Shown here piece after piece: positions 14,506 through 38,038 of a stretch of 41,790 nt of DNA. The stretch is from Octopus sinensis. Lineage: Eukaryota. The notes under the pieces are model-generated. The model was not told the DNA's origin and did not search any database. It saw only the letters and a list, made by a program, of their open reading frames with translations. Location of the stretch: contig NW_021835881.1 of NCBI RefSeq assembly GCF_006345805.1, positions 1-41,790 of the forward strand, read 5' to 3'. Each line of letters starts with the position of its first letter. Positions within the stretch are counted from its first letter, which is position 1. The translations under genes were made by a program, and so were the position numbers.

Positions 14506-14563
14506 AGTTCTGTATCACCGTGATTTCACATTCAACTTACGTCTAATTATCATCAGCAGAACT
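14506..14563 (-). ncRNA. Type I hammerhead ribozyme, array A copy 1
   Basis: AGUUCUG-CUGAUGA-stem II (one extra mismatch versus copies 2 and 3)-GAA-AUCAC(G)GUGAU-A-CAGAACU. Confidence 0.75.
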
Positions 14564-14983
14564 GATTCTGAACACATCATAAATAAACTACCAACCTTAC
14601 GTAGCGAAGACGAACAGACACTGCTCACTCCGGCCAAGCACATGGAACGTTTATAAATCATATATCCGGTAAATGGCGGGCTTTTTACGAACTGCATGTC
14701 GGTAATGAAAAGTATTTCGGAATAAGTTTAACAATTAAGGATAATCTCTTAATAAGGGATTTTAACAAGAAATTATCGGGTAGCTAGCGTGAAAACCTCA
14801 TAAAAGAAAAGAATTCGAAAATAATTTTTTTCTTTTGAACAATTAATTATATCTATATTGTATAGAGGGCATTATTACACATAAATGCCTCACACTAGGA
14901 GGAGGGACAAAGTCATTACTACCAAAATTATACTAATCATACCCAAATGCAGTTTTTCAAAGCAAGACATTTAAAATGAATTT

Positions 14984-15041
14984 AGTTCTGTATCACCGTG
15001 ATTTCACATTCAACTTACGTCTAATGATCATCAGCAGAACT
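14984..15041 (-). ncRNA. Type I hammerhead ribozyme, array A copy 2
   Basis: AGUUCUG-CUGAUGA-U-CAUU-A-GAC(GUAA)GUU-G-AAUG-U-GAA-AUCAC(G)GUGAU-A-CAGAACU. 7-bp stem I, AUA cleavage triplet. Confidence 0.85.
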
Positions 15042-15453
15042 GATTCTGAACACATCATAATAAACTACCAACCTTACGTAGCGAAGACGAACAGACAACT
15101 GCTCACTCCGGCCAAGCACATGGAACGTTTATAAATCATATATCCGGTAAATGGCGGGCTTTTTACGAACTGCATGTCGGTAATGAAAAGTATTTCGGAA
15201 TAAGTTTAACAATTAAGGATAATCTCTTAATAAGGGATTTTAACAAGAATTATCGCTAGCGTGAAAACCTCATAAAAGAAAAGAATTCGAAAATAATTTT
15301 TTTCTTTTGAACAATTAATTATATCTATATTGTATAGAGGGCATTATTACACATAAATGCCTCACACTAGGAGGGACAAAGTCATTACTACCAAAATTAT
15401 ACTAATCATACCCAAATGCAGTTTTTCAAAGCAAGACATTTAAAAATGAATTT

Positions 15454-15511
15454 AGTTCTGTATCACCGTGATTTCACATTCAACTTACGTCTAATGATCA
15501 TCAGCAGAACT
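15454..15511 (-). ncRNA. Type I hammerhead ribozyme, array A copy 3
   Basis: Same sequence as copy 2. Confidence 0.85.
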
Positions 15512-15589
15512 GATTCTGAACACATCATAAATAAACTACCAACCTTACGTAGCGAAGACGAACAGACAACTGCTCACTCCGGCCGTGTG

Positions 15590-15810
15590 TTGTGCGTCGT
15601 TTTGTTTGTGTTTATCCTCCACCAATGCTTGATAACTGGTGTTGGGGTGTTTATGTCCCTGAAACGTTGTGGTTCAGCAAAAGAGACGGTGGAATAAGTA
15701 CCCAGGCCTTAAAAGAAAAGAGGTGTTAGGGGTCGCTTAGTTCGACTAAAAATCCTCCAAGCGTTGCCCCAGTATGGTCACAGTCTAATGATTGAAACAA
15801 GTAAAAGATA
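15590..15810 (+). mobile_element. SINE family B 3' half (diverged)
   Basis: GCTTGATAACTGGTGTTGG...GGTTCAGCAAAAGAGAC...ATGATTGAAACAAGTAAAAGATAA. Confidence 0.7.
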
Positions 15811-15989
15811 AGGGTGTCGCGAAAGACCTAGTTGGAGGCCCAACCTTCCGTTTTTTTTACAGGGTTTAGAAAAGTTGAAGGAGCCTGCACTCTGTGTATC
15901 TGAGAGTGGGGTATGCTGAATAAAATCATAATTAACTGATCGTCCTGTATTTTCTTTTACCCAGAGCCAGGAACTTTTCAGCACTCCCT

Positions 15990-15992
<3 letters not shown>
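15811..15992. repeat. Dispersed ~180-bp repeat; inverted relative at ~30996-31200
   Basis: Both copies translate to 'WLWVKENTG.SV' on opposite strands and share GGGTGTCGCGAAAG and AGCCAGGAAC.TTTCAGCA. Confidence 0.75.
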
Positions 15993-16036
<44 letters not shown>

Positions 16037-17027
16037 TATGGGCTTCCGTAGTTTTCGTGTTCAACTTACCAAATTTCACTCAAACATTCTTTAGGTAGAA
16101 TTGAAGCCACAGCAGAAAGGTTTAAAACCCGAGGTGCTGCGCAGCGCGGAATCAAGTTCTAATCAGTCTAGTTTGCGAGGAGAACGCCTTAACAACACAC
16201 CCAAACCTAAGTCCACATTAAGCCGAAGGGAATTATATTCTGATTTGTAATAATTGCATTGCGAAAACAAAACAAAGCTAAGTAAATACACGATGTGATC
16301 TAAAATAAATACACTTTGTAATATAACCAACGGGGAAAAAAAAAAATCTTAACAAAAAAATACGAAAATAAAACACTTTATTATTAAATACTACATACCA
16401 GACAAGTTTGCAATACATTCCTAGACAAACTAATGGCGTCAATCGCATCGTCCCAACTCCTTCTAACAGCCGAAGATTTATTACTAATGATTACAATAAT
16501 CACCTCCTATTATGTCTGCAAGCATATTTTATGCTGATGTTGTTGGTTAGATCCTTCATCGGTTTAAGAGCAATGGGACTTCAAAATCGTGATCATCCCT
16601 TCTATAACTCGGACATTTGGATAATATCCAGTGTATTCATAAGTGACATTTATACAGTGTATTCTGTTATTTTTATGATGCAGTGTTGTGTATTTTAGCG
16701 AGGGCAAGATTTGGTTGTTATTTCTAATGTTGTAGTTATTCAATTTTGAAAAAAAAAAAAATTATCACACAAATTCTCAAAGTTTACTGCCAGGATTGAC
16801 TTCATTGTTCGGAATGTTATGAAGAGAGAAACTAGGAATGGGCGGGAAAGTGGAACATCACTGCCGCATACACACACACACACACACGAATACATACATA
16901 CATAAATATATATATGTATACGTATACAAGCATATATATAAACACATATGTATATATACATGTATATATACAAATACATACATACATGCAAACATATATA
17001 TATATGTATATATATATATATACATAT

Positions 17028-17181
17028 ATGCCGGAGTTAGCACATAAATGTGGAACAAGGTGGGGAAAAAAAGAATACTCAAATACAAGAGGTAGAGTAA
17101 TATGCTTTATTATCAGAAATATCACAAAAAGTGTCACTCTGAGTAACAGTTTTTGTGATAATTCTGTTGCTTTTAATAAAG

Positions 17182-17184
<3 letters not shown>
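17028..17184. mobile_element. PLE-type terminal repeat with internal palindrome, same family as 19294-19535
   Basis: TATCACAAAAAGTGTC-ACTC-T-GAGT-AACAGTTTTTGTGATA. The outer part is the reverse complement of 19470-19535. Confidence 0.7.
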
Positions 17185-17220
<36 letters not shown>

Positions 17221-17274
17221 GTATGTATGTATATATGCTTGTATGTATGAATGTATGAATGTATATATATATAT

Positions 17275-18230
17275 GGAAAAATAAGTCAAGATAGAAAATG
17301 CTAAAGTTATTTTATAAAAAACATTTCAGTACCGGTTTCAGTAATTGAGACTTTTTCAATTGTAAGTATGGAAAATAATTAGAATTGGAAAAATTTAAAG
17401 AAAAGTTTTTTAAAAAAATATATGCTTAGTGTTCAAATACAAGTGGCATTTTCCTTGTTTCTGCCTATCTCTGTCTCTCTTGTTTATTCATGTGGATTCG
17501 AGGTCGTTGTGATTTATTGGTAGGGAAGAAGAAGAAGAAGAAGAAGAAGAAGAAGAAGAAGAAGAAGAAGAAGGAATGTAGGTAGTGTGAAAGTAGTAAG
17601 GTGTTAAATGTTCAAAATGACTTAAAATTGGCACGTTATGGATTATAGCAGTGATTGGAACTGTTTTTTCATGAATTCTTGGGAATCTCTTGAGCGTATC
17701 ATTATTAATATTTGCGTGTGTATTTGTGTTATTCTAAGGCCGTGGTGGATATGTCGTTTGTCGTAGACGCGTTCAAAAGGGGTCTGTATTTTGTAATAAA
17801 GAGAGTCTCTTTAATAATTCGTTGACTCCAGGTTGTATCGTTCCTGAATTGGTAGAGGGGAAAACTTCTAAAGCTTGGATTTTTGTTATTGGTGCAAATG
17901 TCTATGCTTGATTAGTTTTGATCCGAGTTCAAGGAGTCTTCGTTCACAAGTATAGGTGTCCGAAACTATGGAACAGATTCTTTTCGCTAGCTTACCAGGT
18001 ATATTAACGGTGTGGCATAAATTGAATAATAGGTATTGTTTTGAATCTGTGGGTTTATAGAAGACGTCTGTTTCGATGTGGTTATTGGCTATTTTAATTA
18101 GGATGTCAAGAAAAGGGAGTTGTTTATTGCTGTGCTCCATGGTGAATTGTATGTTGCTATTGATATTGTTGAGCATTATTTTGAAATCAAGTAGTTTGTC
18201 CATGCTATCTTTCTAAAGTATAAAGCAATA
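17275..18230 (-). mobile_element. Penelope-like retroelement fragment (RT C-terminus fused by deletion to the end of GIY-YIG, plus 3'UTR)
   Basis: ORF 17886-18203 NSNIQFTMEHSNKQLPFLDILI...TDVFYKPTDSKQYL.F..CH (PLE RT/thumb), then FPLYQF...QRIIKERLFITKYRPLLN. 3'UTR has (GAA)n and an HHR-like motif and ends in (TA)n. Confidence 0.88.
17327..17362 (-). ncRNA. Atypical hammerhead-like motif (UUGAAAA core) in PLE 3' end
   Basis: CAA-UUGAAAA-AGU(cucaauu)ACU-GAA-ACCGGU-A-CUG. Confidence 0.4.
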
Positions 18231-18272
18231 TACATAGATAGGCGTATGTATACACATATATACGCTCACACA

Positions 18273-18315
<43 letters not shown>

Positions 18316-18382
18316 TATAGACTCTACAGGAAAAGCGTCCAGTATGTCAGTGATGCTTATTTTAGCGAGCCCCTACATAAGG

Positions 18383-18607
18383 AAAGGTAAAGATATATTT
18401 CTTTATTGCCCACAAGGGGCTAAACATAAAGGGGACAGACAAAGGGATTAAGTCAATTACATAGACTCCAGTGCGTAACTGGTACTTAATTTATCGACCC
18501 CGAAAGGATGAAAGGCAAAGTCAACCTCGGCGGAATGTGAACTCACAACGTAACGGCAGACGAAATACGGCTACGCATTTCGCCCGGCGTGCTAACGTTT
18601 CTGCCAA
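18383..18607 (-). mobile_element. SINE family A, near full length
   Basis: Reverse complement of 23385-23612, including TGGCAGAAACGTTAGCACGCCGGGCGAAATGC and GAGTTCACATTCCGCCGAGG. Confidence 0.85.
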
Positions 18608-19170
18608 CTGATAGCATAGACGGAATTCGAAAGAAGAGCCTATACAACAGTAAGTAAATATTAAATGGTAGCCTATGATAGATACAGGTAACGGTCTGTG
18701 ATTCAGAAAGTCACTGGGGAAATTACGTGAAATTTGCGTTCGATTTTACCATGCGTCACTTTGGTAAAATGTCTTCAACTATATTGGGAGTCTAATCGAA
18801 AAGTGTGAGTAAAATTGAGCAGACGGGCTTTATGTGGAAGCCCGCCTGGTGGACTGAAACTGTTCTTTGGTCGTGAATGAAATTCAGCACCCTGTTTAAT
18901 GCCGCCCCTTGCGCTAAGTTGCGTGACTTTCGAAGAGTTTAACGCGTTGTAAACGTTCATGTGGAATCAAGTTTCCTATATAGAAATGATAAGGATAATA
19001 AATGGCTTGAATTCACTATTACCCTTTAATTGATCTAATCTACAGAATCATATTACATATATGTGTACGCATATATATATGTATGCAATTATATATATAC
19101 ATACTTACGTACATACGTACACACACATATATATTATATATATAATATATATGTATATATATATATGTGT

Positions 19171-19227
<57 letters not shown>

Positions 19228-19293
19228 ATGTATGTATGTATGTATGTATGTATGTATGTATGTATATATGTATGTATGTATATATATATTTAT

Positions 19294-19531
19294 GTATACT
19301 TCATTATTAAAGCTGGAAAATACATCACAAAAGTATCACAAAAAACTGCTACTCAGAGTTTCACGTTCCCGTTGGTCGGGCAGATCGTAACTGCCCGACG
19401 AACAGAAACGTGAAACTCTGAGTAGCAGTTTTTGTGATATCTTTGTGATGTTTTGCAACTTAATAATAAAGCATATTACTCTGAGTGCTATTCTTTGCCG
19501 TACCTTGTTTCACTTTTATGTGCTTACTCTG

Positions 19532-19535
<4 letters not shown>
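19294..19535. mobile_element. Inverted pair of PLE-type terminal repeats, each with a hammerhead
   Basis: Arms ~19294-19383 and ~19391-19476 with a 7-nt spacer; flanked by TA/TATG microsatellites. Confidence 0.75.
19391..19428 (+). ncRNA. Minimal type I hammerhead-like motif (mirror copy at 19346-19383, minus strand)
   Basis: Plus copy: CUGC-CCGACGA-AC(agaaac)GU-GAA-ACUC(U)GAGU-A-GCAG. Minus copy: CUGC-CCGACCA-ACG(ggaa)CGU-GAA-ACUC(U)GAGU-A-GCAG. Confidence 0.65.
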
Positions 19536-19593
<58 letters not shown>

Positions 19594-19602
19594 GTACATG
19601 TT

Positions 19603-19657
<55 letters not shown>

Positions 19658-19820
19658 AAGTCAAATTGCGATAAAATAAAAATAATTATTATCGCTGGTA
19701 TTTCTAGCACAAGCCATATATTTTTCATATATCAGTACATTAAGGCGAAATATGTGCTAGGAACACAGAAGCTAGATAAATTTAGTGAAATGAAGATAAA
19801 AACATTTACTAACTCGGTTC

Positions 19821-19894
19821 CTCTTAGACTGCAGTTTCGTTCTTTTCATCAATAAAGATAAATTATTTGCTCAGGGAGAATTCATCGGTAAGAG
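19821..19894 (-). ncRNA. Type I hammerhead ribozyme, array B copy 1
   Basis: CUCUUA-CCGAUGA-long stem II (UUCU/AGAA...)-GAA-ACUGCAGU-C-UAAGAG; GUC triplet. Confidence 0.8.
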
Positions 19895-20217
19895 CCCTGT
19901 TGTTCTGAGATCCTAACTCACTAGAAGCATGTGCTTCTAATGATTTACTCTCTCTAACTAATCAGATCACTGCGCAGACTCCGAACGTCCCGACAAAACT
20001 AGGGATTTCTGGTATATCGTCTAGCGCTCAAAATTTATCGAGAAATATGTAAACAAGTCAAATTGCGATAAAATAAAAATAATTATTATCGCTGGTATTT
20101 CTAGCACAAGCCATATATTTTTCATATATCAGTACATTAAGGCGAAATATGTGCTAGGAACACAGAAGCTAGATAAATTTAGTGAAATGAAGATAAAAAC
20201 ATTTACTAACTCGGTTC

Positions 20218-20291
20218 CTCTTAGACTGCAGTTTCGTTCTTTTCAGCAATAAAGATAAATTATTTGCTCGGGGAGAATTCATCGGTAAGAG
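20218..20291 (-). ncRNA. Type I hammerhead ribozyme, array B copy 2
   Basis: As copy 1, with better distal stem II pairing (AGCA/UGCU, AUAA/UUAU). Confidence 0.82.
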
Positions 20292-20407
20292 CCCTGTTGT
20301 TCTGAGATCCTAACTCACTAGAAGCATGTGCTTCTAATGATTTACTCTCTCTAACTAATCAGATCACTGCGCAGACTCCGAACGTCCCGACAAAACTAGG
20401 GATTTCT

Positions 20408-21155
20408 ATTCTATAATTATGAACATAATTATAATCAGGAGTCAGCTAATTGCTTCACCAGGCACCGAATTTAGAAATGGTAGTTAAAATGACTTTTCTG
20501 CTACTATAAAGATCTCCCAGACAATAACAAACTTATTTACGTACAAAAAGAAAAAAAATTACGAATCCACACGACTTAGATTAGCTACATACGCGTTTCG
20601 AATTTGAAGTAAGGTAATATTTACTTACTTATTTCACCTCTTCAGTGCAGTATTTCAAGATATAAAGTTGTGAGTGTTAGAATTAAATATGTACGTGATC
20701 AAGCGTCATCGCATAACTGACATCCAACCAACACTTTCAAAAATATACAGCCGAACGTGAACACGTTTTCATCCTTAATACCCACGTGTGTGTTACGAGT
20801 AATCCTGCAGAAACTGCGATTTCTGATCAAGGAGTAAAATATATTTCAATAATAATAAAAGGCTTAATTAATAATTAATAATTTTACCGAGTAGTTCGGT
20901 ACCTTTTTTAGGTAAAATTATATTTTATAAATATAATTATAACCAGGGGTTAGCTAATTGCTTCACCGTGCACCGAATATAGAAATAGGAGTTAAAATGC
21001 CTTTTCTGCTACTGTAAAGATCTCCCAGACAATAACACTTATTTACGTAGGCAAAAAAAAAAAGCGAATCCACACGACTCAGATTAGCTACATACACGTT
21101 TCGAATTTGAAGTAAAGTAATATTTACAAACATATTTCACCCCTTCAGTGAAGCA
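20408..21155 (-). repeat. Retrozyme-like tandem array C: ~505-bp unit x ~1.5 (copies visibly diverged)
   Basis: ATAATTATAA.CAGG.GT.AGCTAATTGCTTCACC at 20425 and 20933; HHR motif repeated 503 bp apart. Confidence 0.85.
20585..20650 (-). ncRNA. Type I hammerhead ribozyme, array C copy 1 (decayed copy at 21088-21153)
   Basis: CUGCA-CUGAAGA-GG..UGAA.UAAG...CUUA.UUCA..UC-GAA-ACGCGU-A-UGUAG; GUA triplet. Copy 2 has CUGAAGG and ACGUGU. Confidence 0.8.
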
Positions 21156-21184
21156 TATACTAGCTTATACATCTCTATATATAA

Positions 21185-21541
21185 TAGGAGCACTCCGTCG
21201 GTTGCGACGATGAGGGTCCCAGCTGATACGATCAACAGAACAGCTTGCTCGTGATTATTAACGTGCAAGTGGCTGAGCACTCCACAGACACGTGTACCCT
21301 TAACGTAGTTCTCGGGGGGATTCAGCGTGACACAGAGTGTGACAAGAGAAACAGGAAGAAAGAGCGAGAGAAAGTTGTGGTGAAAGAGTACAGCAGGGTT
21401 CACCACCACCCCCTGCCGGAGCCTCGTGGAGCTTTAGGTGTTTTCGCTCAATAAACAGTCACAATGCCCGGTCTGGGAATCGAAACCGCGATCCTTCGAC
21501 CGCGAGTCCGCTGCCCTAACCACTGAGCCATTGCGCCTCCA
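21185..21541 (-). mobile_element. tRNA-derived SINE, family C, near full length with TSD
   Basis: Head GGAGGCGCAATGGCTCAGTGGTTAGG...GGTTTCGATTCCC; 12-bp TSD CTCTATATATAA (21173-21184 and 21542-21553). Confidence 0.88.
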
Positions 21542-22324
21542 CTCTATATATAAACCAGCTCAAAAGTTGCACTCTGTACGGGTTTTTACGCTGGCCACTG
21601 CATAGGACTATAAATAACATGACTATAATACGTCTATAATGATTATATGCCCCGGTAGAATTTGATCAGAGATTAAGGACGGATGAGAATTAATTCTGTA
21701 ATGCAGTCCCAAGTCGAATTCGAACTATTGGCCAATTTGTCCCAAAGTTCTTTTTCTCGTCGTAAAATTAATGAAGCGAATGAAATTTATTTCCCCCTTG
21801 ATCTCTGACGTCATCTGACAAACGCAAACCAAGATGGAGTGAATCAACCAAGGTTTATGTGCTTATAAATAGCAACTCAAATGCTTTTAAATCAGTGCTG
21901 GATGTTCAAGAACCAAATGAAAGGCATATTTTCGATCCCCGGATCATCCCGATTCCAAAAAGGTATAATATGTCTATGTAGTACAAATGTAGACTGAGAT
22001 ACAGGGGTTCCTAGACGAACAGCCAGAATCTTATACAGCATATTATAATGACCAATAGTTAAAGCGCATGTATCACAATTGAATAATTATGCATAATAAC
22101 TCTAATTTATTGAAATTTATTGAAAGCAAAAACTGAATCAAGTTACGAGAATAGAATTTTTTTATACAATCAACTGAAATTAAATGAAATATTTTCTTAT
22201 AGGAGTGCAACCTAGCACTGTGTTTTGGTTTGTGGTGTAGACATGTGTGGAATACAGAAAACGTTGACCAATGATAAAGATTATGAGGATGACGCTTTTT
22301 GGTTTGCTGTATACATGCAATATT

Positions 22325-22545
22325 CTTTTAGTCTTTAACTTGTTTCAAACATTTGGCTCCGGCCATGCTTGAGCACCGTCTTAAAGGGGTTTTAGTCGAA
22401 GAAATATACCCCCCAGGACTTATTCTTTGTAAGCCTAGCACTTACTCTATGGGTCTCTTTTTGCCAAACTGCTAAATTACGGGGACGTAAACACACCAAC
22501 ATCGGTTGTCAAGCGATGGTGTAGTGACAAACACAGACACAAAGT
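22325..22545 (-). mobile_element. SINE family B 3' half
   Basis: CTTGTTTCA...GGCCATGCTTGAGCACC...GGGGACGTAAACACACCAACATCGGTTGTCAAGCGATGG. Confidence 0.8.
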
Positions 22546-22581
22546 CACACACACACACACATACACACACACACATATATA

Positions 22582-22617
<36 letters not shown>

Positions 22618-22904
22618 TTATATATATTTATATATATGTATGACCAAACACGAATAAATAGGGAAAAATTCTTATTCAAGCCACAACTCAACATACTCAA
22701 ACATACACCCCCACCCCCAGATACACACCCAGAAATATATACAGATGTATAAAATCACACACACACAAATGCAATGCAAACCTCCCACGCAAACACATAT
22801 ACATACATATAACATACACGCACAAACACAATATTCCCATAATCGAGCACACACCCACAAACATTTCAAAAAGAATACATACATAAATTCACTTGCAATA
22901 CGAT

Positions 22905-23270
22905 TCTACTCACGTACACACACACTCACGTACACACACATAACATCCCCACCAACACAAAACACACAAACATACACACACGCACGCACACAGACGAACA
23001 CATGCACACACGCGAACAAACACATACACACACACCACCAGGACAATTATAACAACACATACATACTCAGACAGAGACACACACACACACACACTCACGT
23101 ACACACACATAACATCCCCACCAACACAAAACACACAAACATGCACACACGCACACACACAGACGCACACATGCACAGTCAGACAGAGACACACACACAC
23201 ACTCACGTACACACACATAACATCCCCACCAACACAAAACACAAACATACACACGCACACACAACACCCT
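22905..23270. repeat. CA-rich compound minisatellite
   Basis: ACTCACGTACACACACATAACATCCC(C)ACCAACACAAAACAC occurs three times. Confidence 0.8.
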
Positions 23271-23375
23271 GACAAATTCTAATCACACACATACACACAC
23301 ATGACGTCCGCGACAGCAGCTTCTCAACGGGTCCTTCTTTGGTACCGTAGAACTTCTACTAAGTTGATGCTGTCG

Positions 23376-23612
23376 GGCGGCGAGCTGGCAGAATCGTTAG
23401 CACGCCGGGCGAGATGCTTAGCGGTATTTCGTCTGCTGTTACGTTCTGAGTTCTAATTCCGCCGAGGTCGACTTTGCCTTTCATCCTTTCGGGGTCGATA
23501 AATTAAGTACCAGTTACGTACTGGGATCGATGTAATCGACTTAATCCGTTTGTCTGTCCTTGTTTGTCCCCTCTGTGTTTAACCCCTTGTGGGTAGTAAA
23601 GAAATAGGTATT
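23376..23612 (+). mobile_element. SINE family A, full length
   Basis: GGCGGCGAGCTGGCAGAATCGTTAGC...GAGTTCTAATTCC...GGGTAGTAAAGAAATAGGTAT. Confidence 0.88.
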
Positions 23613-23654
23613 TCTAAATAAGAAATGAGGCAGTAAAATTTGGCTCGTACTATT

Positions 23655-24080
23655 AGTTCCAATTTTTGGCACAAGGCCAGCAATTTCGGGGGGAGCAGGT
23701 AAGTAGATTAGATAGACCACAGTGCTCAACTGGTCCTTATTTTATTGACCCCAAATGAATGAATGTAGCATACAAGTACCACGTAATATTGATTTCAGAT
23801 TTTGGCATAGGGCCAACAGTTTTAGGGAAGTGGATAAGTCCATTATATCGACCCCAGTGTTCAACTGGTACTTACTTTTTCCACCCCGAAAAGATGAAAG
23901 ACAAAATCAACCCCAACGGTATTTCAAGTACCGCATAATATGATTTCAAATTTTGTAACAAGGCCAGAAATTTTAAGGAAGTGGGTAAGTCGATTATATT
24001 TTATTGACACAGAAAAGGTGAAAGGCAATGTCGACATCGTCGGCATTCGAACTTAGAACGTAAAGACGTACTCGATGCCG
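23655..24080 (-). mobile_element. Three tandem partial SINE family A-related copies
   Basis: Repeated TTTTGGCA.A.GGCCA...AAGT...TTA.AT.GAC...AACTGGT.CTTA blocks. Confidence 0.65.
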
Positions 24081-24515
24081 CTAGAAAAAAAAAAAACAGT
24101 TGATTATATCGACAAAAAACTTAACTGGTACGGGTTATAAAATCTCCGGTGGTAAATACAAAGACTGAGTCAACCTTGGTGTGAATTGGGTCGGAAAAAT
24201 ACGAGGTAATTTTATGTAGAACACAATTTAACGTGCGCTATATCGTTCGTCTAGACATTTACAGCTTTCGGTCACGATAAAGAAATAATTATCATTGTTG
24301 TTATTCAGTAGTTAATGATGTGTCAATTGACGTCACATTCTCTTTTGGGCGTAACAAAGAAAAAACGAAACAGGAACTGTTCACATATATCTCTTTGAAT
24401 TAAATAGAAAATATATATATACCCACGCACGCAACCAAACACATACACACATACATACGTATATACATACACGGATACAAAAATACGTACGTACGTACAT
24501 ACATACATACATACA

Positions 24516-24549
<34 letters not shown>

Positions 24550-29291: not shown

Positions 29292-29490
29292 AGGGAGAGT
29301 TTACGAAAAAAACAAAAGACGAAGAGGTGTGGTTTACAAAACAAACAGATGTATTAGTATAACGTTCAGGAATAGAAAAAGTCTTTTACATTTCGAGCCT
29401 ACGCTCTTCTACAGAAAGGTACACATAAAAACAAGGAGAAAAACAAGGAGAGAAAAAAATGTGTGTAGTGGCTAATAACGATCTGTATGG
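29292..29490 (-). mobile_element. PLE-type terminal fragment inserted in (TA)n
   Basis: (TA)n flanks; shares ACG.TCAGGAA and the GAGC/GCTC stem II layout with 14011-14226. Confidence 0.6.
29383..29418 (-). ncRNA. Minimal hammerhead-like motif (variant core)
   Basis: CUUU-CUGUAGA-A-GAGC(guag)GCUC-GAA-AUGU-A-AAAG; A6U change and ACGU>AUGU. Confidence 0.5.
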
Positions 29491-29572
29491 CATTGACTAT
29501 ATATATATATATATATACATATATACATTTCTATTACATATATCGTACATATAAATATATATGTTACGCATA

Positions 29573-29641
<69 letters not shown>

Positions 29642-29860
29642 TCAATATAGGGTAGCAAAAATTCAGCAGAAATTATTTTGCTACCAGCGGTCTAGTGAGA
29701 AAAAGGAAATAGTCAGAGACTATTTATAAATTCAACAGCAAATTAAGGAACGGCCATAATAGGCCGTTCAACCCACTAGAAATAACAGCCAAGGCTTCAA
29801 CCGCAAAATAGTAGTAATTCCGTAAATCAGGAGAAAATTAAAAAACCCTTACCCTGTATC

Positions 29861-29958
29861 ACTTATACAATGCATTGTTTCATCGTTTTTTTATGGTAAA
29901 TCACCTGGTTAAATTAAATCAGCTAATCTTCCATAGGCCAACAGATTCATCAGTAAGT
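29861..29958 (-). ncRNA. Type I hammerhead ribozyme, array D copy 1
   Basis: ACUUA-CUGAUGA-AUC.GUU...UAUGG...CCAUA...AAC.GAU-GAA-ACAAUGCAUUGU-A-UAAGU; GUA triplet. Confidence 0.85.
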
Positions 29959-30671
29959 AAGCCAGGAGGGAGAGATATTACACGAGGCAGCACCACTACC
30001 GCTTCGGCAATATCTAACCTAAAATTTTCAAAATCATCGTACTCTCGCGCGCCAATTTATCGGCAGCAAATATAAGCTGCCGATTCCATTTCGGAATTAA
30101 CAGAAAATTCATAATTAATCAATATAGGGTAGCAAAAATTTAGCAGAAATTATTTTGCTACCAGCGGTCTAGTGAGAAAAAGGAAATAGTCAGAAAAACT
30201 ATTTATAATTCAACAGCAAATTAAGGAACGGCCATAATAGGCCGTTCAACCCACTAGAAATAACAGCCAAGGCTTCAACCGCAAAATAGTAGTAATTCCG
30301 TAAATCAGGAGAAATAAAAAAAAACATTTACCCTGTATCACTTTATACAATGCATTGTTTTTAATTTCTAGTGGGTTGAACGGCCTATTATGGCCGTTCC
30401 TTAATTTGCTGTTGAATTTATAAATAGTCTCTGACTATTTCCTTTTTCTCACTAGACCGCTGGTAGCAAAATAATTTCTGCTGAATTTTTTGCTACCCTA
30501 TATTGATTAATTATGAATTTTCTGTTTAATTCCGAAATGGAATCGGCAGCTTATATTTGCTGCCGATAAATTGGCGCGAGTACGATGATTTTGAAAATTT
30601 TAGGTTAGATATTGCCGAAGCGGTAGTGGTTTGTCTCGTGTCTCTCGTAATATATCTCTCCCTCCTGGCTT

Positions 30672-30770
30672 ACTTTACTGATGAATCTGTTGGCCTATGG
30701 AAGATACCTGATTTAATTTAACCCGGCTGATTTACCATTAAAAACGATGAAACAATGCATTGTATAAAGT
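30672..30770 (+). ncRNA. Type I hammerhead ribozyme, array D inverted copy
   Basis: ACTTTA CTGATGA ATC...GAT GAA ACAATGCATTGT A TAAAGT can be read directly on the plus strand. Confidence 0.85.
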
Positions 30771-30899
30771 GATACAGGGTAAATGTTTTTTTAATTTTCT
30801 CCTGATTTACGGAATTACTACTATTTTGCGGTTGAAGAGCCTTGGCTGTTATTTCCGTGGGTTGAACGGCCTATTATGGCCGTTCCTTATTTGCTGTTG

Positions 30900-30934
<35 letters not shown>

Positions 30935-30943
30935 TAATATATA

Positions 30944-30990
<47 letters not shown>

Positions 30991-31276
30991 GCACAAGTGG
31001 TGGGGGGGGTTTCTTCTGGCTTTGGGTAAAGGAAAATACAGGAGGATCAGTTATTATGATTTGATTCAACATATTTTCCTTCTCAGATTCATACACTTAT
31101 AGTAGCGTCCCTCGGTTTTTCTATACCCTATAAAAGAACTCGGACGGTTGGCCTTTCGCGACACCCTTAAAGCCAGGAACATTTCAGCATCCCCCACTTC
31201 CGTCTGTGTGTATGTATGCATGTATGTATGTATGTGTATGTATGTATGTATGTATGTATGTATGTATGTATGTATG

Positions 31277-31310
<34 letters not shown>

Positions 31311-32438
31311 TATGTATGTACATACGTGCGTATGCATTATATATGTAAGAAATAAATCATGCATTTTATACATTTTATTGTTTTGTCATGTGCATGATCC
31401 TCCCGGTCCTTGGAAAAATGGTCTGGCATGAAACCGGCCCATGGTGCAAAATAAGGTTGGGAACAATATTAGTACAACAACAGCACCAACAGTAGACATT
31501 CAAGAAATTGGACCTGGAGATCTCCATTTCCAGCGACTTCGAGGGCCACCTCCCAGTGGTGTCGGGCATCAACTAAGAGCCCTCGACTACAACAAGACGA
31601 CCAAAGTTTTTTTTTCCAAGGTCTGGAGTTTCCCGCCCCTAAGCCTTACCCGTCTTGTTGCTTAACAACAACAACAACAGCCCCAACAACAGTGGCAGCA
31701 AACGGCTGAGTATATATATGGTGGCCGACTTGTGAAAAACAGCAGTCAATTCTTCACCTTCAAATTATATACAACTACCTTAAATAAAAGGATACATTAC
31801 TTAACATACTCTCGAAGACTCGAAAGCAGAGGAGTTGGTCAGGACTTGTTGGCTCTTGTTGAATGTAGGTCCGCTTCGTAGTGATTAGATCAAGCAAAAA
31901 AAAAAAAAAAAGAAAGAAAAAAAGGAAGGAAGGAATAAATATAAAAACAAATAAATGAAATTAGAAATTTTTCAAAACTGACAAAAGAATAACAACTGTA
32001 ACAGCAGCAAACCCAAACAAAATAATATATAACAGTGAATTTCTATTTTTAAACCAAAACACAATAGCATGACTAATATGTGTTTGGAAGTATAGAAATA
32101 ATAATATTTATATCTGTCTTTGTAAATAACGGGCAAGTATAAAAAGTCATTCACATTGCTCTCTTTGTCTCTCCCCCAGTCTATGTCTCTTTTTCACACA
32201 CTCGCAGACAATGTATATATATATATATATAATATGACCTAGTGCTCAACCAAAAAGTTGGACGTTGTCATACATCGCTGGTCACGATGCGCTTTACATC
32301 GTTTTAGCTTTCGAATGATGTCACCTGGCTTGCTAGGCGTAAAGGCCAACTTTTCCTCCTGGTTTGAAGACCTGTCCATCATAATGTTACCCATTTACAG
32401 CAGAGTGAACTGTAATTATTTATGTGTATATGTGAGCG

Positions 32439-32469
<31 letters not shown>

Positions 32470-32482
32470 TGTATATACATAA

Positions 32483-32534
<52 letters not shown>

Positions 32535-32559
32535 AGCAGAACACAAGTGGGGCTCAAAA

Positions 32560-32636
32560 CACAACAGCTGTTTCGGCAGCATTTATTGATGAATTTATAG
32601 ATTACATGAAGGCAAAAAATCTGCTGCCATCAGGTA
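32560..32636 (-). ncRNA. Hammerhead-like motif with truncated core
   Basis: UAC-CUGAU-GGCAGCA...UGCUGCC-GAA-ACAGCUGU-U-GUG; G8/A9 apparently missing. Confidence 0.45.
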
Positions 32637-32677
32637 GATTTTAAAGAAACCAACAGGTATGTATATATATATATATA

Positions 32678-32952
32678 ATATTAAATTAGAGATAAAACCA
32701 CTATTAGGCAAATCAAACAATGAAAAACTTAAGCCAATACATAAAATTAATTAATTTATATTATTTTAAATATATATCAAAAATATTAAAAGTTTAATAA
32801 AAAGATAATGAGTGTTTTACTCATTATCTTTTATTTAAAGTTTTAATATTTTTCATATTATTTAAAATAATATAAATTAATTAATTTATGTATTAGCTTA
32901 AGTTTTTCATTGTTTGATTTGCCTAATAGTGGTTTTATCTCTAATTTGATAT
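32678..32952. repeat. Long AT-rich near-perfect palindrome (~135-bp arms, 5-nt loop)
   Basis: AAATTAGAGATAAAACCACTATTAGGCAAATCAAACAATG... / ...CATTGTTTGATTTGCCTAATAGTGGTTTTATCTCTAATTT; centre GAGT-GTTTT-ACTC (32810-32822). Confidence 0.92.
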
Positions 32953-33033
32953 ATATAATATTTTACTATAAATTGGATTCAATCCTAAATCTGATTTTTC
33001 CCTGTAAGTTTGGATTTATTCCCTAATATTTAT

Positions 33034-33101
<68 letters not shown>

Positions 33102-33143
33102 ATATAGAGAGAGAGAAGAGAGAGAGAGAGAGGAGAGAGAGAG

Positions 33144-33531
33144 AGTGGCTGTGGTGGTAAGTAGCTTGTTTACCAACCACATGGTTCCGGGTTCAGTCCC
33201 ACTTGGGCAAGTGTCTTCTACTATAGCCTCGGGCCGACCAAAGCCTTGTGAGTGGATTTGGTAGACGGAAACTGAAAGAAGCCCATCGTATATATGTATG
33301 TATATGTATATGTGTGTGTGCGTGTATGTTTGTGGTTGTCCCCCTAGCATGCTTGACAACCGATGCTGGTGTGTTTATGTCCCCGTCACTTAGCGGTTCG
33401 GCAAAAAGAGACCGATAGAATAAGTACTGGGCTTACAAAGAATAAGTCCCGGGGTCGAGTTGCTCGATTAAAGGCAGTGCTCCAGTATGGCCGCAGTCAA
33501 ATGACTGAAACAAGTAAAAAGAGTAAAAGAG
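33144..33531 (+). mobile_element. SINE family B, near full length
   Basis: GTGGCTGTGGTGGTAAGTAGC...GGGTTCAGTCCC...GCAGTCAAATGACTGAAACAAGTAAAAAGAGTAAAAGAG. Confidence 0.88.
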
Positions 33532-33539
33532 TATATATA

Positions 33540-33606
<67 letters not shown>

Positions 33607-33611
33607 TATAT

Positions 33612-34500
33612 ACAAAGAAGCCTTCACCATCATCACCCAGAATTTACCAATACTTCATAAGGGCCCCAAATTAAAGGAAATTCTAAAAAATACACCAAAT
33701 CATTAAAAGCTACAAACAACCTAAATCACTTAAAAAGATTCTCACAAAGGCAAAATTGTTTTCTGAAATTACGGATGCAAAAGTAAAAAAATGTGGTAGA
33801 TCGAACTGTGCAACATGTCCAAACCTGCTAGAAGGATCAGAATTCCTCTTTAAAGAGGGACAGAAATTCAAGATCAAATCTAACTTTACTTATGCCTCTG
33901 AAAACATAATTTATGTCATAAAATGCTCGGGCTACCACCAAGACTACGTGGGATCCACGGGACTATCACTCAGACGTAGATGCACACTGCATCGACAATA
34001 GATTGCATTCCCAGAATACAGAATGATACCTTTTAGTGAGCACATTGAGAAATGCGCAAAGCAACTACTACCACAATTTTTAATCTTTCCATTTTACCAA
34101 TGTGCTATCTGATCATCAACACAAATCAGACTAAACAAGGAAACATTCTTCATTGAAAAGTACAAGCCCAGACTTAACCATTCCAACATACTGATACAGA
34201 GAAATTCACACCAAGGGAAAGGCAAAAAATTTTAAGCGATTATCTCCCTTATACCGGAAGAAATCACTCATTACCTCCCCTTATTTAGAACTCTTTTAAA
34301 CATAAACATAACGATAACTCTGTTCAACATAAACTTAACGTCGTAAGAAATTTGAAAAGCTAAACGCGAAACCGGTCTTTCTTCTAAATTATGTCATTGT
34401 AAGAGAAAAGATTTTTTAATATTCTTCAGATATTGACTCAAATATATATATTTTTAACCTTTAAGCCTTCTGTAGTTTTTTCACTTTTTACTATTTTCTG
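33612..34500 (+). mobile_element. Penelope-like element 3' part (Neptune-like Cys linker plus GIY-YIG endonuclease, disabled)
   Basis: IIKSYKQPKSLKKILTKAK...CGRSNCATC...SENIIYVIKCSGYHQDYVGSTGLSLRRRCTLHRQ*...FSEHIEKC...FPFYQ...KETFFIEKYKPRLN; (TA)n on both sides. Confidence 0.9.
34345..34383 (+). ncRNA. Atypical hammerhead-like motif (UUGAAAA core) in PLE 3' end
   Basis: AAGAAA-U-UUGAAAA-GC(uaaac)GC-GAA-ACCGGU-C-UUUCUU; 6-bp stem I, GUC triplet. Confidence 0.5.
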
Positions 34501-34524
34501 TATATATATATATAATTATATATA

Positions 34525-34566
<42 letters not shown>

Positions 34567-34574
34567 ATATACAT

Positions 34575-34738
34575 ACGACGGACTTCTTTCAGTTTCTTTC
34601 TACCAAATTCACTCAGAAGGCTTTGGTCAACCCGAGGTTATAGAAGACACCTGCCCAAGGTGCCACGCTGTGTGACTGAATCTGGAACCATGGCGGTGGG
34701 GAAACGAGCTTCTTACCACACAGCCACACCTCCACCTA
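34575..34738 (-). mobile_element. SINE family B 5' half
   Basis: TACGACGG.CTTCTTTCAGTTT...CCCAAGGTGCCACGC...CTTACCACACAGCCACACC. Confidence 0.8.
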
Positions 34739-34957
34739 TTGTACTACAAACTTCATGTTTTACAAAGCTTTGATGCGGGAGAGAAACTCAACCATGTTGT
34801 AAAAGCTTAAGAACATGCAATACCTACAATAGGAATAACACGTGATAAAATTAGATGTAGTGATCGGGTAGTTACTCCGTTAACCACTCGGTATAGATTT
34901 GATATGATGTAGGTAAGATTGGATGCAATGTGCTGATAGACACAATGGTCATTTTAA

Positions 34958-35212
34958 AATAAATGCACCCTTTTTAAAGCCTAGCCAGGCTCATGGGCCC
35001 GGTTTCCCGGTTTCTATGGCGTATGTGTTCCCCAGCTAGACGGGACGCCATTCCATCGCAGCGTTACTCATTTTTACCAGCTGAGTGGACTGGAGCAACG
35101 TGAAATGAAGTGTTTTGCTCAAGAACACAACGCGTCACCCGGTCCATGAATCGAAACCACAATCTTACGATCATGATGCTGACACCCTAACCACTAAGCC
35201 ATGCGCCTCCAC
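34958..35212 (-). mobile_element. tRNA-derived SINE, family D (diverged copy ~38665-38866, fragment ~13795-13845)
   Basis: Head GTGGAGGCGCATGGCTTAGTGGTTAGGG...GGTTTCGATTC; body GGGACGCCA.TCCATCGCAG on the plus strand. Confidence 0.85.
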
Positions 35213-35302
35213 AATGGTCGTTCTAGCGCAAACTAAAAATTTGTGTAACACTTTTTAAAAAGTGAAGTATACCATTTCTAATGCAAAGCTTTTCCTGATT
35301 AG

Positions 35303-35640
35303 TACTCTTTTACTCTTTTACCTGTTTCAGTCATTTGGACTGTGGCCATGCTGGAGCACCGCCTTTAGTCGAGCAAATCGACCCCAGGACTTATTTTTTG
35401 TAAGCCTAGTACTTATTCTATCAGTCTCTTTTGCCGAACCACTAAGTTACGGGGGACGTAAACACACCAGCATCGGTTGTCTAGCGATGTCGGGGGGGGG
35501 GGGGACAAACACATACACACAAACACATACACACACACATACATATATATATAAATATAAATAGATATATATATACGACGGGCTTCTTTCAGTTTCCGTC
35601 TACCAAATCCACTCACAAGGCTTTGATCAGCCCGAAGCTA
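35303..35640 (-). mobile_element. SINE family B lacking its head
   Basis: (TACTCTTT)n...TGGCCATGCTGGAGCACCGCC...CAGTTTCCGTCTACCAAATCCACTCACAAGGCTTTG. Confidence 0.85.
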
Positions 35641-36533
35641 TTGGTTGCTAGTTTAAAAATTTAAGAGGCGTCTTGTTGAGAACCACTAAATTAATCGAAG
35701 AAGCTCCCAGTGTTGATACTAATTAACATGAAATGCTGCAAAACTTATTGCTGAAGGATGCAACATATCAGAACAAGAGAACAATATTGATGAAACTGAA
35801 CTCCTCTGGAAATGCGTAATTACTTGGAATAATAATTCTAGACAAGAAAAATCAGAACAACCCATAAGGCTTATAAAAATCGTCTGACAATCCCTGTAGG
35901 AGGAATTGCTGCTGTTTGATATGAAATTGAAACCCTTAGTTGTGTATCACTTCGAAACTTCAAGGGATCTCAAGGGCTTTCAAGTGTTACGCTTGAAAGA
36001 GTAATGACTATAATGGTTATATCATACAAATATACTGATATTTAATTATAAGGGACCTATGTAAAATGCTGTCGTGTATGAAGATGTGAAATGTAAAAAT
36101 ATGCGCACACATACTGTATATCTGCAGGTGTAATCGCATATATCTATAATTTGTAAGACGACATGTATGGACATAAACGCCTAAATGTTAAGCCAGCAAT
36201 TAAAGATATTTAATAAGCCTCGAGTCCAATGCACCCCTCCCCATGCACACATATACATATAGGCATGTGATGAGCTTCTGAATATTTTCACTTAATCAAG
36301 TTCCACTCATAATGGTGAAAACAAGGCTCTAGTCGGAGACAGACGTGTCTCGTCGTATGTCCTGAGATTTAACTCGGAACCTCCTGACTGGAAAGCGAAT
36401 TTACCACGCTTATTTCCTAAGCATAGAAAGCCACCATGGGGTCATCCAACCTGCAAAACAAAACGACGCAAAAGCATATTTTGAGCAATAAATAGGTACT
36501 ACATTCGGCCAACAGAAAGCAACAGCAACAGCA

Positions 36534-36722
36534 GTGGAGACGCAATGGCCCAGTGGATAGGGCAGCGGACTCGCGGTCGTAAGAACGCGGTTTCGATTCC
36601 CAGACCGGGCATTGTGAGTTGAGTGTTTATTGAGCAAAAACACCTAAGCTCCACGAGGCTCCGGCGGGGGTGCTGGTGAACCCCACTGTACTCTTTCACC
36701 ATAACTTTCACTCTTTCTTCCT
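36534..36722 (+). mobile_element. SINE family C 5' half
   Basis: Reverse complement of 21350-21542. Confidence 0.85.
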
Positions 36723-37509
36723 ACTTCTGCCACAAAGCAGAGGAACCATGGTGTAACCCACTATGGTGTAGTAAACCTTCAGACCCAAGTCTAGATTGCG
36801 AATCCTCTGTACCCTAGGATGGTTCAGCTCTCCACCCGTTAAAAGCCACCGTTTACGGAATGAGGATGACAACGTAGCTTTCGCGCCCGTGCAACCGCCA
36901 ATCTATCGCGTGTGGTGGGTGGATCTTCAAGTTGCCACACAAATTCTTAGTAACTTAGAGTAGGCTCGAATTAGAGATTATTCTTTGTGGCTAATGGCTT
37001 GAGTCCTGATTGGAAGAAGAAGAAGACAGCAACAACAGTGTACAAAGTAATACATTTAATCCTTCATAAATGACGTCAGTCTCAACTGAGTTTCTGACTT
37101 CTCAACAAACCACAATAAACTACAAAACACTCCAGACAGCACCATTTCGTATTATAGTGCATCGTAGACAGACCACACCCATTGATCACCTACACAAGAA
37201 AACAAAGTCATCAAAAGTTGAAGACCGCTTCGACATGATACAAAGAAGAGTTTGTTTCTGCAGGAAACTTCGATAACTATAGTTCTTAACATTATGGGGG
37301 CAAAACAAAAACCCAACAAAAAACACTTAGACATATACAAGGGCATGAGAATAGTACTACAACAGTATTCGTATCCTAAAAGCAGTATTTCTCCCATTAG
37401 ACCGGAAGAAACATATATAAATACATACACATAGAAATAATTATATAAGTGTTACAATCCATCAAATGGACCGAACTGTCATATAGACTAAATCTCTTTT
37501 GTTCACGTT

Positions 37510-37805
37510 TGTTGTAGCTGCCATCTGCTGACGTCAGATATAGACTAGACAGTGGAGAGACTGCAAATACCCAGGTTGTCATGTTACATCCCGAGCAATT
37601 CTTCTCTGCGTGTCGGACTGTGAAGTATGATATTCATTTGGGTGGATGCTTCACATGACTGGTTAAGATCGCCTATTGTCATCTGTCCGATTATTGACAG
37701 TAGTAGGAGCGATTGCTCAGGGCCGACTTGGAGGCTACAAAGTACGGCTATCTTCGTTCTCTACGACTGTTAGATCAGGGCTGTACTGGTGGGGGCTACG
37801 TAACA
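37510..37805. mobile_element. Possible solo LTR
   Basis: ~296 bp, GC-richer, bounded by TGTTGTAGC...GCTACGTAACA (TG..CA with a short imperfect IR). No TSD seen. Confidence 0.35.
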
Positions 37806-37821
37806 ACAACAACAACAACAA

Positions 37822-37863
<42 letters not shown>

Positions 37864-38004
37864 CACCACCACCACGACTACTTCTACAGAAGGTGTAATC
37901 CATAATCAGGGGAAATATTGATGGTCAACATCGACAACAATTAACTAATAGAGGAGTTCTTAGAAAACTTTAATAAATTCAACTGAACAAAAAGGACTGA
38001 AGAA

Positions 38005-38038
38005 TCTAACGTTTCGGGATTTTACCCTTCATCAGAGA
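38005..38038 (-). ncRNA. Minimal type I hammerhead ribozyme with canonical core
   Basis: UCU-CUGAUGA-A-GGG(uaaaau)CCC-GAA-ACGU-U-AGA. Confidence 0.7.

What the first reader, a model, noticed from the sequence alone, without database searches (positions are those of the whole stretch)
14506..38038. Every hammerhead family has a different self-complementary stem III: a possible dimer-recognition code
Seen: stem III sequences are AUCAC-G-GUGAU (A), ACUGCAGU (B), ACGCGU (C), ACAAUGCAUUGU (D), ACUC-U-GAGU (19.4 kb), ACCGGU (both PLEs), ACAGCUGU (32.6 kb) and ACGU (14.1 and 38.0 kb). All are palindromes with 0-1-nt centres, which is strong evidence the folds are real. Established: palindromic stem III allows double-hammerhead (dimeric) cleavage. 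Inference: cleavage is favoured in multimeric transcripts, which protects monomer circles, and family-specific palindromes would prevent cross-activation between co-expressed families.
Basis: partly seen in the sequence, partly recalled or inferred. Interest (0 to 1): 0.72.

Follow-up and report, generated by a model that had tools for sequence, protein, structure and literature searches.

The report
Known dimer-type hammerheads, no recognition code
Several unrelated mobile repeats in this animal DNA carry hammerhead-type motifs, likely self-cutting RNAs, whose third stem reads the same on both strands, a long-published feature that likely lets neighbouring copies cut as pairs, and the differences between families are no greater than chance gives, so this is ordinary rather than a new recognition code.

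Summary
The palindromes are at the stated places and far beyond chance: a scan that did not require them gave 11 hits, 9 palindromic, against 0.54 hits per shuffled window, 2 of 54 palindromic. They belong to type I hammerheads in retrozyme-like tandem repeats and Penelope-like element ends. Palindromic stem III, dimer cleavage and protection of monomer circles are all in print (PMC4209133, PMC3088659), and Rfam's own consensus has a loop-less palindromic stem III. The new part, a family code, is not supported. Two of 45 family pairs share a palindrome (ACCGGU, ACGU) although their flanks show no similarity. ACGU is just the conserved core letters. Cross-pairing penalties are no larger than for random palindromes. 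A double hammerhead also swaps helix I, which separates 43 of 45 pairs by itself. Several cited sites have altered cores or lack helix I, and one family copy reads ACGUGU. Cleavage was not tested, and ten families give low power. The scan noted a similar case on other DNA (e1-7789536).

The parts
15454..15511 (-). Family A hammerhead, copy 1; canonical core, 7-bp helix I, U-U at base of helix II, stem III AUCACGGUGAU
   Evidence: in tandem array 14245-15584, period 478
14984..15041 (-). Family A hammerhead, copy 2, identical to copy 1
14506..14563 (-). Family A hammerhead, copy 3; one change weakens helix II, stem III unchanged
14245..15584 (-). Family A retrozyme-like tandem array, 2.8 units of about 478 nt, 34% GC, ending at a (TA)n tract
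20218..20291 (-). Family B hammerhead, copy 1; core CCGAUGA (U4C), 6-bp helix I, stem III ACUGCAGU
   Evidence: Rfam RF00163 29.3 bits, below gathering 34
19821..19894 (-). Family B hammerhead, copy 2 (397-nt tandem unit, array 19648-20407)
20585..20650 (-). Family C hammerhead, copy 1; canonical core, 5-bp helix I, stem III ACGCGU
   Evidence: unit about 500 nt
21090..21151 (-).
30670..30772 (+). Family D hammerhead; canonical core, 8-bp helix I, long helix II arm, stem III ACAAUGCAUUGU
29859..29960 (-). Family D hammerhead, inverted copy; compensating 1-nt shorter helix I on both arms
   Evidence: tandem/inverted arrangement 29641-30911
30330..30360 (-). Truncated family D copy that begins just upstream of stem III, at the inversion junction
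19389..19430 (+). 19.4 kb (family E) hammerhead; core CCGACGA (U4C), 6-bp helix I, stem III ACUCUGAGU
19346..19383 (-). Family E inverted partner; core CCGACCA (damaged), same stem III
34345..34383 (+). Penelope-type hammerhead with U3-A8 core (UUGAAAA), 6-bp helix I with one extra base, stem III ACCGGU, 3' of a broken GIY-YIG-like frame (33687-34232)
   Evidence: atlas GIY-YIG look-alike cluster, 27% of members, score 0.95; no Pfam hit
17327..17362 (-). Hammerhead-like site with U3-A8 core and ACCGGU but no helix I at the junction; about 550 nt 3' of a Penelope-like protein fragment (17889-18212)
   Evidence: atlas HTH_animal look-alikes, score 0.97
32560..32636 (-). Decayed hammerhead: 6-7-bp helix II, stem III ACAGCUGU, A9 absent, 3-bp helix I
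14110..14144 (-). Minimal hammerhead (ACGU, U4C core, extra base before helix II, 4-bp helix I)
38005..38038 (-). Minimal hammerhead (ACGU, canonical core, extra base before helix II, 3-bp helix I)

Best explanation
These are type I hammerhead motifs in unrelated retrozyme-like repeats and Penelope-like element ends, whose palindromic stem III likely lets two neighbouring copies on one transcript fold as the known double hammerhead, and whose sequences likely differ between families through independent drift rather than as a selected code. Shown by sequence: motifs, palindromes, tandem or inverted arrangement, low GC, microsatellite flanks. Computed: in the dimer both stem III and helix I pair between copies; the dimer is more stable than two active monomers for A-E; mixed-family dimers are disfavoured about equally by helix I and by stem III. 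Inferred from known families: multimeric transcripts are cut to unit length, circularised by a host ligase and re-inserted by Penelope-type enzymes. Selection would act on self-complementarity (any palindrome starting with A, usually AC, will do), and partner choice would come mainly from the partner being on the same RNA.
For: Palindromy beyond chance without being asked for: 9 of 11 hits against 2 of 54 in shuffles. Dimer minus two active monomers: A -13.5, B -16.9, C -19.5, D -16.7, E -12.1 kcal/mol. A, D and E keep 1, 2 and 1 pairs more than a hairpin can use (1 in 256 if each pair is 1 in 4, my arithmetic). Published for other animals: PMC4209133, PMC3088659 Fig S8 legend, PMC6765202, PMC6466107; Rfam RF00163 consensus stem III has 4 pairs and no loop. 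No excess orthogonality: mean cross penalty 12.7 against 14.7+/-0.9 (free null) and 12.0+/-1.1 (AC-biased null); 2 identical pairs against 0.43 and 1.48 expected. Helix I penalty is 3 kcal/mol or more in 43 of 45 pairs, including 6.2 and 4.7 for the two pairs with identical stem III. Tandem joints for B and C in public contigs.
Against: No cleavage, transcript or circle was shown. Only 2 of the 18 sites got an Rfam hammerhead hit, below threshold. For the minimal site at 14.1 kb the computed dimer is 7.3 kcal/mol worse than two free folds. The minimal and Penelope-type sites have no tandem partner in the window. Units of A, C and D (about 478, 500, 478 nt) exceed the 150-450 bp given for metazoan retrozymes. 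The null test has 10 families only, and its outcome depends on the null chosen. Stem III does disfavour mixed dimers in 43 of 45 pairs, so a weak selective contribution is not excluded.
Confidence: 0.78

Rival explanations
1. Selected dimer-recognition code: co-expressed families are driven to different stem III palindromes so that they do not activate each other's cleavage in trans.
For: Mixed stem III duplexes are 3 kcal/mol or more worse than like pairs in 43 of 45 pairs. The six best-supported families have six different palindromes. One run guessed to be RNA holds family A words (share 0.39) and a family B relative, a weak hint of co-expression.
Against: Two identical pairs among dissimilar elements. 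Six different palindromes are expected by chance with probability 0.94 or 0.78. Penalties are not above random. Helix I alone discriminates as often. ACGU holds no letters beyond the conserved core, and 9 of 10 begin AC and end GU. Partners are linked in cis in A-D.
Confidence: 0.06
2. The long-stem families (A, D, E, perhaps B) work mainly as ordinary monomer hammerheads; loop palindromy is inherited or a secondary aid.
For: Monomer stem III of 4, 4, 3 and 2 bp is possible. Coral and mussel retrozymes cleave as monomers, and most metazoan circles are predicted to leave the ribozyme free to fold (PMC7229834).
Against: Loop letters stay complementary beyond what a hairpin needs. The active monomer is 2.9-7.7 kcal/mol above the free fold in all six sites modelled, whereas the dimer is below two free folds for A-E.
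Confidence: 0.12
3. The palindromes are products of DNA or cDNA fold-back during insertion, or chance, not RNA function.
For: At 17136 an inverted repeat is centred on the family E palindrome, and the D inversion junction abuts stem III. The same 12-nt palindrome as D occurs at 38784 in an unrelated repeat with no hammerhead core.
Against: Palindromes sit exactly between GAA and the H site inside complete core and helix I/II contexts in 7 unrelated elements. The same geometry is reported across animals.
Confidence: 0.04

Closest known systems
Metazoan non-LTR retrozymes with type I hammerheads (Cervera and de la Pena 2020, PMC7229834; passages and sections 14, 17 read)
   Same: Short low-GC (32-36%) tandem units with one type I hammerhead each, no long ORF; palindromic loop 3; U-U at the base of helix II in family A as in axolotl HHR_Amex2; several families coexisting with Penelope-like elements
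   Different: Units of A, C, D are about 478-500 nt, above the 150-450 bp range; stem III palindromes of 9-12 nt are longer than the 1-2 bp plus 2-4 nt loop called typical in PMC4209133; B and D have long helix II arms; circles and cleavage not shown here
Minimal and variant hammerheads of Penelope-like elements (Cervera and de la Pena 2014, PMC4209133, parts 1-2 read; Lunse et al. 2017, seen only as a citation in PMC6765202 and PMC6466107)
   Same: ACGU stem III made of conserved letters only, extra base between 9 and 10.1, G10.1-C11.1, U3-A8 core covariation, small palindromic helix III, position 3' of a GIY-YIG-like frame, isolated truncated and inverted copies
   Different: Copies here are fragments without an intact ORF or a tandem partner; helix II is 2-4 bp at the four ACGU/ACCGGU sites rather than 7-8 bp; U4C at 14.1 kb
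Double hammerheads of newt satellite 2 and avocado sunblotch viroid (Forster et al. 1988; seen only as cited in PMC4209133 and PMC3088659) and Rfam RF00163 Hammerhead_1
   Same: Stem III merged between two copies; Rfam consensus draws stem III as four pairs with no loop
   Different: No site reaches the Rfam gathering score; these are animal mobile repeats of many families in one 42-kb window
Retroviral dimer-initiation palindromes (recalled; related titles seen only in search listing)
   Same: A short palindrome that favours like-with-like RNA pairing: the closest precedent for the proposed code
   Different: There the palindrome nucleates pairing of two separate genomes for packaging; here the partner is in cis and helix I is exchanged too

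Membership tests
Type I hammerhead ribozyme | Core CUGANGA...GAAA...UH | tested here: met
   Canonical at 8 of 18 sites (A x3, C1, D x2, 38.0 kb, 2.6 kb); U4C at 4, U3-A8 at 2, damaged at 4
Type I hammerhead ribozyme | Helix I closing the 5' and 3' ends next to the core | tested here: met
   5-8 bp for A-E and 34.4 kb, 4 bp at 14.1 kb, 3 bp at 32.6 and 38.0 kb, 0 at 17.3 kb
Type I hammerhead ribozyme | Rfam RF00163 gathering score (34 bits) | tested here: not met
   B copies 29.3 bits; no hit listed for A, C, D or 14.1 kb; 82 low rows not shown
Type I hammerhead ribozyme | Self-cleavage 3' of H17 | not testable with these tools
   Only contigs were served, which show no RNA ends
Double (dimeric) hammerhead | Palindromic stem III/loop 3 | tested here: met
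   16 of 18 sites fully Watson-Crick palindromic; exceptions ACGUGU and ACAU; chance test
Double (dimeric) hammerhead | Second same-strand copy nearby | tested here: inconclusive
   Met for A, B, C; D has one full and one truncated same-strand copy; E pair is inverted; five others single
Double (dimeric) hammerhead | Monomer poorly active, dimer active | not testable with these tools
   Energies favour dimers for A-E, not for the 14.1 kb site; no kinetics
Non-LTR retrozyme | Tandem units of 150-450 bp | tested here: inconclusive
   Tandem yes; B 397 in range, A 478, C about 500, D about 478 slightly above
Non-LTR retrozyme | Low GC and non-coding | tested here: met
   GC 0.32-0.36; no stop-to-stop frame of 150 aa in the units except one running mostly through a microsatellite
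Non-LTR retrozyme | Expressed as linear and circular monomer RNA | tested here: inconclusive
   One 428-nt family B contig in run X16 closes on itself with a 30-nt overlap; fits a circle or a tandem array, and the run is only guessed to be RNA
Non-LTR retrozyme | Target site duplications | not tested
   Arrays end in (TA)n tracts, which hide them
Penelope-like element hammerhead | Motif lies 3' of an RT/GIY-YIG ORF | tested here: inconclusive
   34.4 kb follows a GIY-YIG look-alike frame and 17.3 kb follows an HTH_animal look-alike; Pfam gave no hit; no ORF evidence for 14.1, 32.6, 38.0 kb
Penelope-like element hammerhead | Extra base between 9 and 10.1 with G10.1-C11.1, or U3-A8 core | tested here: met
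   Extra A then G-C at 14.1, 38.0 and 2.6 kb; U3-A8 at 17.3 and 34.4 kb (features)
Proposed family recognition code | Each family has its own palindrome | tested here: not met
   2 of 45 pairs identical between dissimilar elements
Proposed family recognition code | More orthogonal than random palindromes | tested here: not met
   Fraction of null sets at least as orthogonal: 0.98 and 0.24 (10 families), 0.83 and 0.16 (6 families)
Proposed family recognition code | Stem III needed for discrimination | tested here: not met
   Helix I alone gives 3 kcal/mol or more in 43 of 45 pairs, mean 11.6 against 12.7 for stem III
Proposed family recognition code | Palindrome conserved within families | tested here: inconclusive
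   In window A 3/3, B 2/2, D 3/3, E 2/2, C 1/2 identical, but copies are recent neighbours; no stem III change among 40 of 294 difference rows shown
Proposed family recognition code | Families co-expressed in the same cells | not testable with these tools
   No run on record as RNA of the host; only guessed RNA contigs

The most novel reading that the evidence does not exclude
The long palindromes (9-12 nt in A, D, E), kept fully self-complementary although a monomer hairpin would suffice, act with helix I as family-specific pairing keys between separate RNA circles, so that a family's circles are opened or templated only when its own RNA is abundant, and co-expressed families are selected to keep different keys.
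Probability: 0.06. Interest if true: 0.62.

Novelty: new member of a known kind. Interest (0 to 1): 0.17.

Why it matters
As it stands it adds several undescribed-looking retrozyme and Penelope-type hammerhead families (no paper on them) with rather long stem III palindromes. These are handy natural test cases for whether 3-4-bp stem III hammerheads still use the dimer fold. A selected RNA-RNA recognition code between selfish elements would matter, because it would be a sequence-based self/non-self system among retroelements and a source of orthogonal ribozyme pairs, but the data here give it no support.

Tried and rejected
Whole-genome family survey: no genome is held. Relatives of the 34.4 kb Penelope fragment in metagenomes: 2 weak loci from 215 candidates, neither with a hammerhead by my scan, so ACCGGU could not be traced across relatives. 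Pfam: nothing for 4 of 5 fragments; the fifth is an RT at 304-933, unrelated to the finding. PDB sequences: nothing under E 0.4. Repeat finder: swamped by microsatellites; self-BLAST used instead. Rfam whole-window list: nearly all microRNA-model hits on microsatellites, rejected. Family C had no cover in X16, which proves nothing. Lunse et al. 2017 is not held; it may discuss palindrome variation or mixed dimers and I could not see it. The text-held supplements of PMC3088659 had no match for my two terms, so Fig S8 was seen as a legend only. PMC7357161 has no hammerhead passage. PMC2837043 describes a different double hammerhead in crickets, with stem III intramolecular, so not every natural dimer needs a palindrome. 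No earlier scan note on look-alike stretches of 12500-24499.


Full report
Setting. The window is 37% GC animal-type DNA full of microsatellites and dispersed repeats. From recall of its repeat content it looks like an octopus-type genome; no call shows this, and no genome is held.

Observation. To avoid circularity I ran a scan that asked for core, GAAA, helix II, helix I and UH but not for stem III pairing. It gave 11 hits, 9 palindromic, from 7 unrelated elements; 100 shuffles gave 54 hits in all, 2 palindromic, never more than 1 per shuffle. The two non-palindromic real hits are a mis-parse of B2 and an overlap with the 38.0 kb site on the other strand. The scan missed A3, C2, E minus, 17.3, 32.6, 38.0, 2.6 and 39.5 kb, and its two variant cores were chosen after seeing the data. 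The palindromes are real.

Corrections to the observation. ACCGGU is at 17.3 and 34.4 kb and ACGU at 14.1 and 38.0 kb, and the surroundings of each pair align no better than shuffles (scores 23 and 20; null means 21.0 and 18.8). I cannot exclude deep common ancestry of the two ACCGGU elements, which share the U3-A8 core; sharing by descent would still leave two diverged families with one palindrome. 'All palindromes' omits the second C copy (ACGUGU, with an A9G core) and the 2.6 kb site (ACAU). Of 18 sites, 8 have a canonical core with UH, 4 have U4C, 2 have U3-A8 and 4 are damaged; 17.3 kb has no helix I pair at the junction. A palindrome alone is weak evidence of a fold: D's 12-mer recurs at 38784 in an unrelated repeat with no core. 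Rfam scored only the B copies (29.3 bits, threshold 34) and nothing for A, C, D or 14.1 kb.

What the elements are. A (period 478), B (397), C (about 500) and D (about 478, with an inversion) are tandem units of 32-36% GC with one hammerhead each, mostly bounded by (TA)n, as in metazoan non-LTR retrozymes (PMC7229834; passages and sections 14 and 17 read), though three units are somewhat longer than the published range. The 34.4 kb site lies 3' of a broken frame that resembles GIY-YIG proteins in the atlas, and the 17.3 kb site about 550 nt 3' of an HTH_animal-like fragment; Pfam itself gave no hit. Their U3-A8 core, and the ACGU sites with an extra base before G10.1-C11.1, match features described for Penelope-like element hammerheads (PMC4209133, parts 1-2 of 4 read). 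Inverted, truncated copies and microsatellite targets are typical of these elements (PMC8557442, passages).

Public reads. On 20015-20920 (one B and one C copy), 1828, 1617, 1174 and 1 contigs of four runs were laid. Of 294 difference rows, 40 were shown. None falls in stem III, core or helix I of B1 or C1; one is in B's loop II and five in C's helix II arm. The 254 hidden rows may include stem III changes. Loose ends show B relatives with a canonical CUGAAGA core and other helix I arms (UCUCA, AAUCUUA against CUCUUA here), so helix I varies even inside the B group. A joint going back 496 nt occurs in three runs (tandem C). In X16 one 428-nt contig covers the B unit and closes on itself with a 30-nt overlap, while its 83 nt over the ribozyme did not align at 80%; this fits a circle or a tandem array, and the run is only guessed to be RNA.

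Mechanism. In a type I double hammerhead A15.1 of copy X pairs with U16.1 of copy Y, so the cut site and the 3' arm of helix I at X's core come from Y. Helix I is therefore swapped as well (follows from the topology). Nearest-neighbour energies put the dimer 12.1-19.5 kcal/mol below two active monomers for A-E and 1.5-8.5 below two free folds; the minimal 14.1 kb site is 7.3 above two free folds (two separate strands, no linker, no tertiary contacts). A, D and E can still form 4, 4 and 3 bp monomer stems, and coral and mussel retrozymes cut as monomers, so 'protected monomer circles' is not safe for these families. PMC7229834 itself argues that metazoan circles are probably blocked by something other than self-pairing.

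The code. Across 45 pairs of 10 families, mixed stem III costs 3 kcal/mol or more in 43 (mean 12.7) and mixed helix I in 43 (mean 11.6); the two pairs with identical stem III are separated by helix I by 6.2 and 4.7. Against 1500 random palindrome sets of the same lengths, the observed set is less orthogonal than a free null (98% of nulls at least as high) and unremarkable against an AC-biased null (24%); identical pairs number 2 against 0.43 or 1.48 expected. The six best-supported families are all different, which happens by chance with probability 0.94 or 0.78. Nine of ten palindromes begin AC and end GU, and ACGU has no free letter. Ten families in one window give low power, so a weak effect is not excluded.

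Prior art. PMC4209133 states that helix III of metazoan type I hammerheads is short with a palindromic loop, that tandem copies fold as dimers, and that this may allow cleavage in multimers but not monomer circles. The Fig S8 legend of PMC3088659 lists the palindromic character of stem and loop III for several ribozymes (figure not seen). Reviews PMC6765202 and PMC6466107 repeat this (passages). Rfam's RF00163 consensus has a four-pair stem III with no loop. Six searches (judged from listings plus the papers read) showed no paper proposing a between-family code and none describing these families. Lunse et al. 2017 was not available, and Forster et al. 1988 was seen only as a citation. An earlier scan note on another genome reports the same kind of observation and verdict (e1-7789536; not checked here, not counted as support).

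Verdict. Real feature, known mechanism, new family members; the recognition code is unsupported. Interest 0.17.

Noticed in passing
window 17100-17186: An inverted repeat centred exactly on the family E stem III palindrome (17136-17144), with the ribozyme's 5' half missing on both arms. It could arise by deletion between the two near-identical palindromes of an inverted pair like that at 19346-19430.
   Followed up: partly
window 30330-30364: The inversion junction of the family D array lies a few bases from the 5' edge of a stem III palindrome; with 17.1 kb, two rearrangement junctions sit at stem III.
   Followed up: partly
window 14000-21200: Dense cluster: 11 of the 18 hammerhead-like sites from six unrelated elements within about 7 kb, all on the minus strand except one of the inverted E pair; B and C arrays abut within about 10 nt.
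   Followed up: no
window 17327-17362 and 34345-34383: Both ACCGGU sites carry the U3-A8 core UUGAAAA within 9-13 nt of GAAA, though their flanks are dissimilar; this heptamer pattern occurs at only 40 places on both strands.
   Followed up: partly
window 20210-20291 against run X16 record 9: In a family B relative from another organism label the ribozyme segment (83 nt) fails to align at 80% while both flanks align at 90-95%; depth over this segment is also lowest in the B unit in three other runs, so the ribozyme region may be the most variable part of the unit.
   Followed up: no
window 2612-2655 and 39551-39589: Two further decayed minimal hammerheads outside the finding's range (stem III ACAU, not palindromic; AUAU with G at the cut site).
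   Followed up: partly
window 14245-15584 and 29641-30360: Families A and D have almost the same period (478 and about 477-480 nt) with no sequence similarity detected.
   Followed up: no
window 304-2136: Broken non-LTR retroelement on the minus strand with an RVT_1 domain (E 2.7e-09).
   Followed up: no
window 4742-6212 and 6403-7877: A 1.66-kb tandem duplication at 99% identity; recent duplication or assembly artefact.
   Followed up: no
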